DNA from: Eledone cirrhosa
Lineage: Eukaryota
Assembly (NCBI GenBank): GCA_964016885.1
Contig: OZ024744.1
Location: forward strand, 8,556,001-8,620,000
Length of the DNA stretch: 64,000 nucleotides
Direction of reading: 5' to 3'
Shown: piece by piece, positions 26,217 to 56,044 of the stretch
How positions within the stretch are numbered: position 1 is the first letter of the stretch
Layout: the number at the start of each line of letters is the position of its first letter
The notes under the pieces: generated by a model
Told to the model about the DNA's origin: nothing
The model's input: the letters and a program-made list of their open reading frames with translations, nothing else
Database searches by the model: none
Position numbers and translations under genes: made by a program

Positions 26217-26236
26217 GTGATAATAATAATAATAAT

Positions 26237-29200
26237 GATTTCATTTATTGGCCACAAGGGCCGACATATAGGGGACAATACAAAAGACTGGGACAGTGGG
26301 GTTTTACAGAAAAATCGAGTAAACAATATGAATAACAATAACAAAGTGACAATAACAAAGTAACAATAAAGTAACAATAAAATTACAACAAGCAAAAATC
26401 CCCAATAGGGTGGATGACTACCCAGGGTTCGCTCAGGTACCCCACGAGTCCTGAACTACCCGACGCTTCGAGAGCACACTGGAAGAGTACCCCCTCTCCT
26501 CCTCTAATTTACCTACCTACAGCCGCATGACCAGAGTAGGCCCACTCACAGTGGCCATTCTCGCCACATTCACCCACCTTTCAGCAAATGTACTGGGGGC
26601 AGCACTTCTCTCTCCACCCTCACCTTCCTTTCCAAGTGAAACTTGAAAAAGTTGATGAGAGATTGGCCGAAGAGAAAAGTGTCTGTCTTCAGTCCTTTCA
26701 ACCTCGTCCACCATATAACCTCTTTCGCTACTGCCACCAGACAGAGGAAAATTGCCTGCCCTTCCTGGCCAAAGGAAGGCGGCGGGTCGATCTTCACTAT
26801 GGACTCGGCCGAGCCGGATCTGTTCTACACGCGACAACAGCTGTTCGACATAACTCCAGAAGTCAGTAATGCACGGACACTGGATGAGTGCGTGCAGAAC
26901 GGTCTCGTCGCTCTGAGCGGAGCTCGGGCAGGTCCGTCTGACAGCACTTCCGTGCCTGTAGAATTTATCCCGAACCGGCAGTGCCCCCCCCCCCCCCCGT
27001 AGCACTGCCAACCGAGGGAATTTTGGAAATTATCCATCGTCCTCGGCTCGAAAGTCCTCCGGTACAGACTGGTTAGTTCGACTTCGTTGACTCCCAGAGC
27101 CGCTCCGAATGCGTCGTCGCACTTGCCCACCACTAATCCTCTATAGAACTTGAGAGTGGAAGTTCCACTGACCGCATTTCCCGCCTAGTAGAGGGCAGTG
27201 AGTTCCTGGCAATATTCCAGATGCCAGTCACCCAGTCTCGGTCCCTTCTTGACCCAGGTCCCTTCTTGATGGCGGGCGCGATGTACGCGTTCGCCACCTC
27301 CGCCCGCCCTTTCAGTCATAGCTTCGTCCCAGCCCATTTCTGGGTGAGACTGGCTACCCTTCCCGTCACCTCGTCCTAATTCTTATCCACCTGGAGGTCT
27401 GGCCCGAACCAAACCCCGAGCAACTTTACCGGTTTTCAGTCCAGCGCCTAACGCCGCTGTTGGACGACATGGACTTGTCTCTCCAGGTGCCGAGTTGCAA
27501 GCCCACTGACATTTCCGGGTTAAGTTTTGCTCCCGTCAACCTTTCATATTCCTCCAATAAGTTGCCGACCACCTCGATTTCTGAGGTGTCCGACACCATC
27601 ACGGTGATGTCGTCCGCATAAGCCGACACAGCCTTTCCGCGTCCCGGTTCGAGCGGGATGCCCTGCAACGCTCCAGCTTCCACAGTAAAGGCTCGAGATT
27701 CAATACGTACAGAAGGGAGGAGAGAGGGCATCCTGACAGACCGATCGGGAGACCTGAAACGGTTCCGAGAGGTGGCCATTAATTTTGACCATCGAGTAGG
27801 TGCCGCTGTGCAACGATCCAGCTTCTGAAGATGGGGCCGAAGCCAGCCGCCTTGAGGACAGCCTCCAGGTACCGATCGTCGACCCTATCGAATGCTTTCG
27901 ATTGATCTAAATTGATCAGAGCCCCACCGAAGCCAGGTGTACACCTTACCCTCTCTATGATGTATCGCATTAGGTGGAGGTTGTCATGTATGGACCTGGT
28001 TGGGATTGCGCAAATTTGCGCCTCCCCAACCAAATCCCCGACGTCAAGCGCCAACCTCTTCGTTAACACCCTGGCCAAAATCTTATACTCTGTGTTGAGC
28101 AGAGTTATGGGCCTGAAATTGTCTAATGTGTCCGTCTTGTTCTCGTCTTTCCTTATCAGCGTCACTACGCCCCGGCTCACAGAACTGGGAATACTCCCAT
28201 TTTGCTGCCAGTTGCAGTAGAGGGCTTCGAGGAGATTGGAGAACAAGTCTGACATATTTACGTAAAGCTCGTAGGGCAGACCATCCAAACCGGGTGACTT
28301 GCGCCTCATGCAGCCTACAAGGGCATCCTGAATCTCGGCTGAAGTAATTGGCCTTTCGCAGCGCCCAGCGTCAGCCGTCGAGAGTTGCGTCAAACCATCG
28401 AGGTAGGGACTGAAGTCCGCCACCATCTCTGACCCACCACTTCCCCCGAACAACCGAGCAAAATGTTAGCGAAAGGCCTCACACATCCTCTTGGAATCTC
28501 TCAGCTCGTGCCCGTCTCGGTACGTCAAAGACCGAATCGTGGTTTTATTACCACGTTGGGCCTCCGCCACGCGGACCCATCGAATAGCTTTGGTTCCCTC
28601 GTTTCTCAGAACACGCGCCTTAACTCTGACAATGCAACCTTCGTGTGTGTTTGGCATTGAAGAAATGGTCTAATGCCATTCTCGCCGCTAGCACGTCAGT
28701 TGCAATGCCACTACCAATAGCCTCGTCTAACTTATCTACCAACTCCCTTCCTTTCTATTTTTCTTTAACGCTACTTCTTTGCTAAACTTTATCGATATTA
28801 CTCTAATCTCTCTTTTGAGAGCCCCCCACCATCTATTGTTGACGACTCACCCTGTCAACTTTTGCTTAACTAAATTGTTTACCTGGTCCCTGTAAGCCTT
28901 ACGTGCCGTAAATTACATGTTTAGCTTCCAGTAACCAGATCTTAACCTACGCGTCTTATCTAGGTCGACCATACAGATCACAAACTTGTGATCTGAATAG
29001 GCGACCGTTTCAAAACGTGGACAGCTTACACTATTTCTGTCTATTTTCCTAATGAATATCCTGTCTATATACGATCTAGATGACTCTATGCGGTTAGCCC
29101 ACGCCCACACTGGGGCATTAGGGAAATCTAGTCGGTACCTGTCAGACAGCTGGAACTGGCTGATCAGGTTCTTGAGGCTTTTGCACCCCCCGCTCCTATC

Positions 29201-54700: not shown

Positions 54701-55362
54701 ATATTTACAAGGACGAGGCTAGCTCACTGTGCAGGATCTGTGGAGAGAGAGAGGAGACTGTGGCTCACATTGTATCCGAGTGTAAACACCTATAAAGGCT
54801 GGAGACATGATGTGATGGGCAGGGTGATCCATTGGCACCTATGCAAAGTAAACAATTTACCACATTCTGAGAGGTGGTATGAGCATAAGCCAGAGTCGGT
54901 GATAGAAAACAATCAGGTGAAGGTGCTGTGGGATTTTAGGATACAGACGGACAAGAAACTGGAACACAATAGGCTTGACCTGGTGGTTTTGGACAAGGAA
55001 AAAAGATCGTGCCTGATTGTGGATGTGGCCTGCCCATTCGACACGAGAGTGCAAGAGAAGGAGAGGGAGAAAATTAACCGATACCAGGACTTAAAGTGGG
55101 AGGTAAAAAGGATTTGGAACTGCCCTGAAATCAGAGTCGTCCCGATTGTCATAGGCGCACTGGGGACTACTCCAAGAGTTTCCAAGGATGGTTAAAGAAA
55201 GTTAGTCCACCCCCGCTTTTTGGAACACTTCAAAAGGCATGCTTGCTGGAAACAGCAAGAAACCTCCGATACGTCCTGAATATCTGAGGCTGCAGGTAGT
55301 GGCTTGATATTCATTTCAACAAATTCTCCAGTTAACTAACATCAATGACTGAGACTCAAAGT
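51712..55362 (+). mobile_element. R4/Dong-clade non-LTR retrotransposon, apparently full length, frameshifted single ORF (RT + zinc knuckle + RLE)
   Basis: N-terminal WT..LN..VMQCY..S.P..GYRKRM..IW. RT YRPITCL, EQKGC, GIFQGDSLSPL, HLLFMDDLKL, YKYLG, GGRGL. CRIC...ETVAHI..C, RHD and the RLE motifs follow. TAA tail at 55363-55385. Confidence 0.93.
51774..51862. repeat. 18-bp tandem repeat AAATCACTGGGGGTGATC/G x5 in the Dong 5'UTR
   Basis: Read directly. Each unit is a mini-hairpin (ATCAC..GTGAT). Confidence 0.92.
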
Positions 55363-56044
55363 ATAATAATAATATTAATAAATATGAAAACTAAAATCCA
55401 AATATATATAAGGGCATTAACTCTGACATAGCTCCCTATATGCAATACCTATGTATGTATACATATATATATATATATTAATGTTTAAATATTGAGCCTT
55501 GTTATTCACCGGTTTATATTATGTGTGTGTGTATGCGTGTGTCTGTATGTTTGTCTTTGTGGTTGTGCCTGAACTTCGCGGTTGGACAAGAAAAATGAGA
55601 TAATAAAATAAGTACCAGACTCGAAAAAATAAGGACTGTGGTCGATATGATGGACTAAATCAAAGCGGAACACCCGCATGGCTGCACTATAATGGTTAAA
55701 AAACCCAGAAAGTGTAAAAAATAAATGAAATTTAAAAAAAACAGTAGTCACTGCCAGGAAATCTATGCAGCGATGAGCAAAATTAATCTATTTTAACATG
55801 CAATATTTACGTCATAGAAATATGAAATAATAAATGACATATTTATATACTCATGTATTCTTTTAAAGGTTTCAGTCATTAGACTTTATTCATTGTTTGT
55901 TTGTTGTTTTTCATTCAATTTGTTTTATATTTCATTTTTTTATCTATCATAGCTTTCTTTCAAGAAAACGTTAACCCTTTTGATAAACATCATAAACGTG
56001 GTTTTATGGATTAGGACAATGGGATTGATGAGTTAATATCTGTA

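What the first reader, a model, noticed from the sequence alone, without database searches (positions are those of the whole stretch)
26220..55385. 29-kb retrotransposon nest built on (AAT)n: Tx1 (APE) and Dong/R4 (RLE) LINEs plus a SINE share one microsatellite target in opposite, fixed orientations
Seen: about 12 insertions lie end to end with essentially no unique spacer. (AAT)n runs sit at 26220, 31880, 31946, 37838, 38310, 38614, 41582, 46632, 50659, 51686 and 55363 (shorter at ~51083). All Tx1 3' ends and SINEs are on the minus strand (sense tail ATT), and all Dong-type copies are on the plus strand (sense tail TAA). Full-length Tx1 5' ends also abut (AAT)n, consistent with a target rather than only a tail. 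Known: Dong targets TAA repeats, and fish Tx1 families Kibi/Koshi target TC/TTC repeats. Inference: these are (ATT)n-specific Tx1 families. Each insertion regenerates the target, giving a self-propagating landing pad shared by two unrelated endonucleases, possibly also a dual-strand piRNA-source locus.
Basis: partly seen in the sequence, partly recalled or inferred. Interest (0 to 1): 0.8.

Follow-up and report, generated by a model that had tools for sequence, protein, structure and literature searches.

The report
Three retroposons share one ATT microsatellite
In this likely octopus genome, two unrelated kinds of jumping gene sit in the same three-letter repeat in opposite directions across the genome and form chains up to 60 kb, likely because each insertion copies the landing site, and a very abundant short repeat carries the same RNA tail hairpin as one of them, so it likely borrows that element's enzyme and seeds new landing sites.

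Summary
Real, and one example of a genome-wide system rather than a special locus. The 29-kb stretch holds 12 insertions joined at (AAT)n: 13 AAT runs, 0 ATT runs, 306 of 29,166 nt unexplained. Genome-wide, 501 of 542 exact 5' ends of the Tx1-like family TxA follow TTATTATT in register. At 502 runs, full-length Tx 5' ends lie on the ATT strand 110:0 and Dong 5' ends on the AAT strand 64:6. Visible duplications of 13-18 bp suggest the 'tail' is largely copied target. A 60-kb nest lies elsewhere, and one family has 19 intact ORF2 copies at 99.8% identity. New here: (1) a sister family with the same 3' end sits in (ATCT)n and differs in the endonuclease loop; (2) the SINE (at least 163,722 copies) shares a covarying 3' hairpin with the Tx families but needs only Y^ATTATT, so it is not microsatellite-specific. 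Against strict targeting: only 12 of 33 apparently truncated Tx copies abut 8 nt or more of ATT. Tx1-clade membership was not tested against named references; piRNA role and long-read support are untested.

The parts
25690..26219 (.). (AT)n array plus AGTG: left half of the likely pre-insertion site (end of a common interspersed repeat)
26238..31879 (-). TxA copy 1: full-length L1-group (Tx1-like) LINE, broken ORFs; (AAT)n at 26220 and 31880
31901..31945 (-). SINE stub: 5' 11 nt joined to 3' 35 nt (internal deletion), carries the 3' hairpin
31988..37837 (-). TxA2: full-length Tx1-like LINE, different 5' end, 81% to TxA copy 1
37857..38309 (+). Dong-type family A, 5'-truncated, starts at (AAT)7, tail-to-tail with the next Tx piece
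38340..38613 (-). TxB 3' fragment, 5'-truncated exactly at the ATT tail of the SINE
38629..38803 (-). SINE, near full length, 3' hairpin plus ATT tail
38804..41581 (-). TxA copy 3: both ends present, large internal deletions, last 11 nt and tail lost at the SINE junction
41615..46631 (-). TxC: full-length Tx1-like LINE with deletions
46665..47809 (-). TxB/D 3' segment of a 5'-inverted copy
47810..50658 (+). Inverted 5' part of the same copy (ORF1 end, APE, RT); about 156 nt missing at the break; outer junction joins (AAT)7 with 2-nt AA microhomology (twin-priming signature)
50680..51055 (+). Second Dong-type family (B), 5'-truncated, starts at (AAT)7, degenerate AAT tail
51088..51685 (+). Dong-type family A, 5'-truncated fragment
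51710..55362 (+). Dong-type family A (single ORF: RT, CCHC, RLE), truncated in the 5' UTR, starts at (AAT)8
55363..55400 (.). AAT run plus TAATAAATATGAAAACTAAAATCCAAA: right half of the likely pre-insertion site
10110..10180 (-). Empty paralogue of the host site: (AT)n-AG-(TAA)4-AATTGAAGACTAAAATCC
1362..3206 (-). TxF: sister Tx1-like family, 5'-truncated at (ATCT)n; internal control with another target

Best explanation
The locus is a chain of 12 retroposon insertions in one (ATT/AAT)n microsatellite, likely grown because (ATT)n-targeting Tx1-like LINEs and TAA-targeting Dong-type LINEs each leave the repeat on both sides of every new copy. Shown: the Tx families lie in (ATT)n in fixed register and orientation genome-wide; Dong lies in the same repeat on the other strand; a sister family lies in (ATCT)n; the SINE shares the Tx 3' hairpin. 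Inferred steps: (1) the Tx APE nicks the AAT strand, probably at T^A, and the RT primes at the element's 3' end after recognising a small hairpin (loop CUUGU, 21-22 nt from the end); (2) the second nick falls about 13-18 nt away, so the target is duplicated and the apparent tail is largely this duplication; (3) the Dong RLE nicks the opposite strand, giving tail-to-tail and head-to-head junctions; (4) the SINE uses the Tx enzyme through the same hairpin but needs only Y^ATTATT, so it spreads everywhere and its ATT tails seed new nests; (5) the betaB6-betaB5 loop of the APE (NRIGSSRS against N[RHL][GS]GTSRS) likely helps choose ATT against ATCT.
For: 501 of 542 exact TxA 5' termini follow TTATTATT (controls 0). 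29 of 29 chained full-length TxA copies picked by their 3' end have an upstream ATT run, and so do 19 of 19 intact young TxG copies. Orientation at 502 runs: Tx full 5' ends 110:0, truncated 19:2; Dong 5' ends 64:6 on the other strand. 26 of 31 TxA copies have another nest member within 200 nt upstream, which random insertion of an element carrying its own ATT would not give. Non-repeat duplications of 13-18 bp start at or near the element's end (L221, L103, L053, L228-TxB, L020). The twin-primed junction lies on (AAT)7. The nest flanks rejoin to an empty site with about 4 TAA (8 empty and 5 filled of 13 matches). TxF: 25 of 29 3' flanks and 15 of 24 apparent 5' truncations in ATCT-type repeats, 0 of 29 in ATT. 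Hairpin stems GGCC/GGCC, AACC/GGUU and UGGC/GCCA around the same loop; covariation 0.568 against 0.18 shuffled (0 of 500) and at most 0.21 when slid. A 60-kb nest with the same rules, one Dong piece excepted.
Against: Apparently truncated Tx copies abut 8 nt or more of ATT in only 12 of 33 cases (17 of 33 for 6 nt or more). None of the 5 TxA copies lacking the 5' end abuts ATT directly; some look like later deletions, which I did not show for all. L228-TxG has six ATT upstream but two downstream, which a pure duplication does not explain. In perfect repeats the duplication and the nick register cannot be read. Most loci were chosen by similarity to the queries and are not a random sample; only and the 30 positional loci (27 of 30 followed by ATT) are unselected. 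The loop difference is a single contrast. The hairpin is only 3-4 bp, was named from these sequences, and the 11 rows are related, so the shuffle count is not a probability. No biochemical data.
Confidence: 0.78

Rival explanations
1. RNA-guided targeting: the endonuclease recognises only a short Y^ATT-type site, and the long-repeat preference comes from (AUU)n read through at both ends of the LINE RNA, which anneals to the target and can add ATT units at the 5' junction.
For: The SINE, which likely uses the same enzyme, inserts at Y^ATTATT outside microsatellites. Full-length copies are far more strictly ATT-flanked than truncated ones. L228-TxG has surplus 5' ATT. AATAAA lies only about 8 nt before the repeat, so transcripts would include AUU units (sequence; inference).
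Against: L221 and L103 show duplications of imperfect target starting right at the element's end with no added tail. The APE loop is nearly invariant across ATT families whose ORF2s are about 67% identical and differs in the ATCT family. The two models can act together.
Confidence: 0.3
2. No targeting: the repeats are element-encoded ends, and the elements pile up passively in tolerant regions or by recombination between tails.
For: 3' ATT/AAT runs alone could be tails; many truncated Tx copies lack 5' ATT.
Against: In-register 5' flanks 501 of 542; varied upstream neighbours; duplications; filled and empty versions of one host site; truncated Dong copies start on AAT in 24 of 33; the same 3' end goes with ATCT in TxF.
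Confidence: 0.05
3. The SINE is moved by another LINE (for example an RTE with ATT repeats) and resembles the Tx tail by chance.
For: The shared stretch is about 30 nt; its score is reached by 3 of 589 TxA windows and is not significant for TxB (p 0.09). RTE SINEs are known to link 3' microsatellites with TSD starts (PMC6007223, abstract). I did not examine RTE 3' ends in this genome.
Against: Same loop at the same distance from the end (21-22 nt), with compensatory stems; shuffle p 0.0005-0.005 for TxA, TxC and TxF, none for Dong; same strand as Tx in 131 of 133 run contacts. The O. vulgaris RTE is reported to have a microsatellite as most of its 3' UTR (PMC9115989, passage).
Confidence: 0.2
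4. The 29-kb chain is a misassembly joined at AAT runs.
For: No read or contig bridging a unique junction was seen (records too short, so uninformative).
Against: All copies differ (70-95% pairwise). Outer flanks rejoin to one known empty site, though only about 25 nt match on the right. Runs are 12-40 nt, far shorter than long reads. The same architecture recurs genome-wide.
Confidence: 0.04

Closest known systems
Kibi (TC)n, Koshi (TTC)n and crocodilian (TTCC/TTTC)n Tx1 families
   Same: APE-type, L1-group LINEs inserted in microsatellites (PMC4494074, passages and section 15; PMC3812793, passage).
   Different: Targets here are A/T-rich (ATT)n and (ATCT)n, in an invertebrate; at least seven 5' variants; target shared with an RLE element; relationship to Kibi/Koshi not tested.
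Dong (B. mori), DongAg, DongBg (snail), R4 clade
   Same: Single-ORF RT+CCHC+RLE element in TAA repeats (PMC3812793, passage); Dong-R4 is reported as abundant and recently active in Octopus vulgaris (PMC13282606, passages).
   Different: Nothing new for Dong itself, except that at least three families co-occupy sites with Tx1-like elements in the opposite orientation.
SINEU and Tx1-Mar in crocodilians
   Same: A SINE inferred to be moved by Tx1, with weaker target preference in some families (PMC4494074, passages).
   Different: There the link is a shared target; here it is a shared, covarying 3' hairpin, and the SINE has at least 163,722 copies.
Stringent-type LINE/SINE pairs with 3' stem-loops (plant L1 lineage, L2)
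   Same: Conserved loop with variable compensatory stem in the 3' tail (PMC3747384, passages).
   Different: Here in a target-specific Tx1-like group; the stem is only 3-4 bp.
L1 twin-priming 5' inversion (recalled)
   Same: Inverted 5' part with deletion and short microhomology at the outer junction.
   Different: Seen in one copy of a Tx1-like element; the primer is the (ATT)n target.

Membership tests
Tx1 clade (L1 group) | Two ORFs; ORF2 = APE + RT + C-terminal zinc motif | tested here: met
   TxG ORF1 626-660 aa, ORF2 1150 aa; Exo_endo_phos, RVT_1, zf-RVT
Tx1 clade (L1 group) | ORF2 closer to L1 than to R2-type proteins | tested here: met
   PDB: human L1 ORF2p E 1.5e-56, R2 3e-22; no RTE, CR1 or I full-length protein in that library
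Tx1 clade (L1 group) | ORF1 with CCHC knuckle (feature recalled) | tested here: met
   One CX2CX4HX4C in TxG ORF1; no Pfam hit
Tx1 clade (L1 group) | RT groups with Tx1L, Keno, Kibi, Koshi | not testable with these tools
   No named Tx1 reference among homologues; nearest named are Argonauta (66-71%) and teleost hypothetical proteins (about 39% in RT)
Target-specific family (flank in over 20% of copies, criterion of PMC4494074) | One sequence type in the flanks | tested here: met
   501 of 542; TxF 25 of 29; SINE 4-5 of 50 fails it
Dong / R4 clade | Single ORF, RT, CCHC, PD..D RLE, no APE | tested here: met
   1141-aa ORF; CRIC..H..C and RPD..D; R2 proteins best in PDB
Dong / R4 clade | Insertion in TAA repeats | tested here: met
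   24 of 33 truncated 5' junctions; 64:6 strand ratio
Dong / R4 clade | RT groups with Dong/R4 rather than HERO or NeSL | not testable with these tools
   No named references available
Stringent LINE/SINE pair | Shared structured 3' tail | tested here: met
Stringent LINE/SINE pair | Trans-mobilisation by the LINE protein | not testable with these tools
   needs a cell assay
Dual-strand piRNA cluster | Small RNAs from both strands | not testable with these tools
   no RNA holder listed

The most novel reading that the evidence does not exclude
Octopods carry a still-active Tx1 radiation that reads A/T-rich microsatellites through a two-residue change in the endonuclease loop (ATT against ATCT), drives one of the genome's most abundant SINEs through a shared CUUGU hairpin, and uses that SINE's tails as seeds; together with Dong on the opposite strand it builds self-extending nests of up to 60 kb, a three-party niche-construction loop that inflates the genome's ATT repeats.
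Probability: 0.45. Interest if true: 0.75.

Novelty: new variant of a known kind. Interest (0 to 1): 0.6.

Why it matters
It adds two targets, (ATT)n and (ATCT)n, to the short list for APE-type LINEs. Two close families differ in target and in one loop, and one family has intact copies, so the old question of enzyme versus RNA annealing in LINE site choice becomes directly testable. It names a likely driver for a SINE with over 160,000 copies. It offers a mechanism for TE hotspots in octopus genomes, which are reported without a cause (PMC13282606). It also warns that ATT markers and short-read insertion callers will fail at these sites.

Tried and rejected
Read support for the assembly: Logan contigs and RAD reads were too short and skipped the repeats; no verdict. 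No RNA holder listed. A DNA search with the TxB 3' end returned nothing because its words are too common; TxB was studied through neighbours and a pattern count. Rfam and ARAGORN found no tRNA head for the SINE. No named Tx1 protein turned up. Direction of the ATT/ATCT switch is unresolved: TxF falls outside the ATT families in residues 180-537 (93/93) but with TxA/G in 570-950 (91/98); the DNA tree has no outgroup. In the quick tree one row (TxE_L259) was a wrongly picked Dong ORF and was ignored. The automatic 'informative TSD' counts for Tx and Dong are inflated by repeat matches, so only five read by eye are used; no Dong duplication could be read. I first took the SINE for an RTE-type Ceph-SINE (recalled) and dropped this. 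Kojima and Fujiwara 2004 and the Dong paper were not held. Earlier scan notes: none for this genome or sequence; two on coding-motif nests in other genomes did not bear on this.

Full report
Observation. Between 26220 and 55385 there are 13 AAT-strand runs and no ATT-strand run, against 1 and 4 in the rest of the window, and only 306 of 29,166 nt are unexplained. Self-comparison and Pfam resolve 12 insertions: six APE+RT LINE copies and two SINEs with 3' ends on the minus strand, and four RLE-type pieces on the plus strand. One correction matters: 47810-50658 is a plus-strand APE+RT piece. It is the inverted 5' part of the copy at 46665-47809, lacks about 156 nt at the break, and joins (AAT)7 with a 2-nt AA microhomology. 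This matches twin priming (recalled from L1) and implies the repeat was the upstream flank at insertion. The genome is 3.0 Gb and the nearest named homologue is from Argonauta, so it is likely an octopod.

Is (ATT)n a target? Genome-wide, 501 of 542 exact TxA 5' termini are preceded in register by TTATTATT. Of 37 TxA copies picked by the 3' end, 29 chain to the 5' end and all have an ATT run there; 3 more are full length with rearrangements and also follow ATT; 5 lack the 5' end and do not abut ATT directly. In a positional sample, 27 of 30 Tx 3' motifs are followed by ATT, out of 6,858 exact motifs. At 502 runs in the loci held, Tx full 5' ends lie on the ATT strand 110:0, truncated ends 19:2, Dong 5' ends on the AAT strand 64:6, and SINE contacts 131:2 (loci selected by these queries). 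The weak point is truncated Tx copies: 12 of 33 have 8 nt or more of ATT at the junction and 17 of 33 have 6 or more, while Dong has 24 of 33. Several misses look like later deletions or chaining errors, but not all are explained.

Self-renewal. Where the target is imperfect, duplications of 13-18 bp are visible and start at or near the element's last base (L221, L103, L053, L228-TxB, L020), so the tail is largely duplicated target. One young copy (L228-TxG) has surplus 5' ATT, which hints that RNA-borne repeats also contribute. The nest's outer flanks rejoin to the end of a common repeat that, when empty, holds about four TAA (8 empty, 5 filled of 13 matches); the right-hand match is only about 25 nt. 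A neighbour from the same set lies within 200 nt upstream of 26 of 31 and downstream of 23 of 37 TxA copies. Fifteen chains chosen for extension reach 10-24 kb, and C1:43,658,044-43,718,186 is a 60-kb nest that includes a third Dong family and one Dong piece in the other orientation. The window is thus a large but not unique example. Family TxG has 19 fetched copies with an intact 1150-aa ORF2, 99.8% identical on average, several in tandem, so the system is probably active.

A sister family with another target. The copy at 1362-3206 belongs to TxF, about 70% identical in DNA and with the same 3' motif. Its copies are followed by ATCT-type repeats in 25 of 29 cases and by ATT in none, and 15 of 24 apparent truncations start in such repeats. 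The segment aligning to the betaB6-betaB5 loop of L1 endonuclease reads NRIGSSRS in most ATT-family copies (broken copies show single changes) and N[RHL][GS]GTSRS in three TxF copies. That loop alters nicking preference in L1/Tx1L grafts (PMC1950540, passages). This is one contrast, and the trees disagree on which target came first.

The SINE. It has at least 163,722 exact 3' motifs. It is not microsatellite-specific: 4-5 of 50 copies sit in runs of three or more ATT, and 26 of 52 near-full copies have a non-repeat duplication of 9-25 bp, 21 beginning ATT after C or T. Its last 30 nt resemble Tx but not Dong ends. All Tx families and the SINE carry a hairpin with loop CUUGU 21-22 nt from the end, with stems GGCC/GGCC, AACC/GGUU and UGGC/GCCA; covariation exceeds all 500 shuffles and all slid controls, with the caveat that rows are related and the structure was named from them. 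I infer that the SINE uses the Tx enzyme. SINE copies are the commonest upstream neighbour of TxA (9 of 31), consistent with seeding. RTE ends in this genome were not examined.

Comparison with print. Known Tx1 microsatellite targets are TC, TTC, TTCC and TTTC (PMC4494074, passages and section 15); Dong targets TAA, also in a snail (PMC3812793, passage). Octopus repeat papers list L1-Tx1, Dong-R4 and SINEs without targets or partners (PMC13282606, PMC8967140, PMC9115989, passages). Nine full-text searches found no ATT- or ATCT-targeting Tx1 and no octopus Tx1/SINE pair. PMC4640811, PMC4758252, PMC5786205, PMC8869645 and PMC3747384 were seen as passages and PMC6007223 as abstract. Repbase Reports, Kojima and Fujiwara 2004 and all supplements were not seen and may already hold such families. 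Clade membership is met by anatomy but untested against named references.

Verdict. Targeting, fixed opposite orientation and self-renewal are well supported; the SINE's role is revised; piRNA function and long-read support are untested. New variant of a known kind, interest 0.6.

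Noticed in passing
window 1362-3206 (-); L162-L190, L252-L256: TxF, a Tx1-like family in (ATCT)n repeats that forms its own tandem nests
   Followed up: yes
G000:C1:43658044-43718186 (L313-L319): 60-kb nest of the same type, with a full-length third Dong family and SINEs inside LINE bodies
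   Followed up: partly
L211-L229: Young family TxG with intact ORFs, tandem arrays of three or more copies separated by 5-7 ATT
   Followed up: partly
window 10110-10180 (-) and 55363-55400: Common unnamed repeat that ends in (TAA)4 next to (AT)n arrays; possibly itself (AT)n-targeting; a frequent landing site
   Followed up: partly
L257, L126, L219, L124: Families with near-identical ORF2 but unrelated 5' ends (TxD/TxB, TxG/TxA), suggesting 5' UTR swapping; the two ORF2 halves also give different trees
   Followed up: partly
L091-L127: Most TxA copies picked by their 3' end are full length (32 of 37), unusual for LINEs, whereas most TxF copies look truncated
   Followed up: no
window 38804: SINE 5' end joins a TxA 3' end that lacks its last 11 nt and tail: target deletion or template switch
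   Followed up: no
L112: Full-length TxA with an internal 309-bp inversion plus deletion
   Followed up: no
L241-L251: Dong family A has at least two different 5' ends
   Followed up: no
window 17241-20104 (-): Penelope-like element (RT plus GIY-YIG); related pieces at 13750-16233 and 21776-25440 not examined
   Followed up: no
window 56000-57810 and 60185-61690: Other RT fragments outside the nest, ending near (AT)n, clade not determined
   Followed up: no
window 1-1360 and 11391-13580: 20-bp minisatellite and a 2.2-kb GAA-rich array
   Followed up: no
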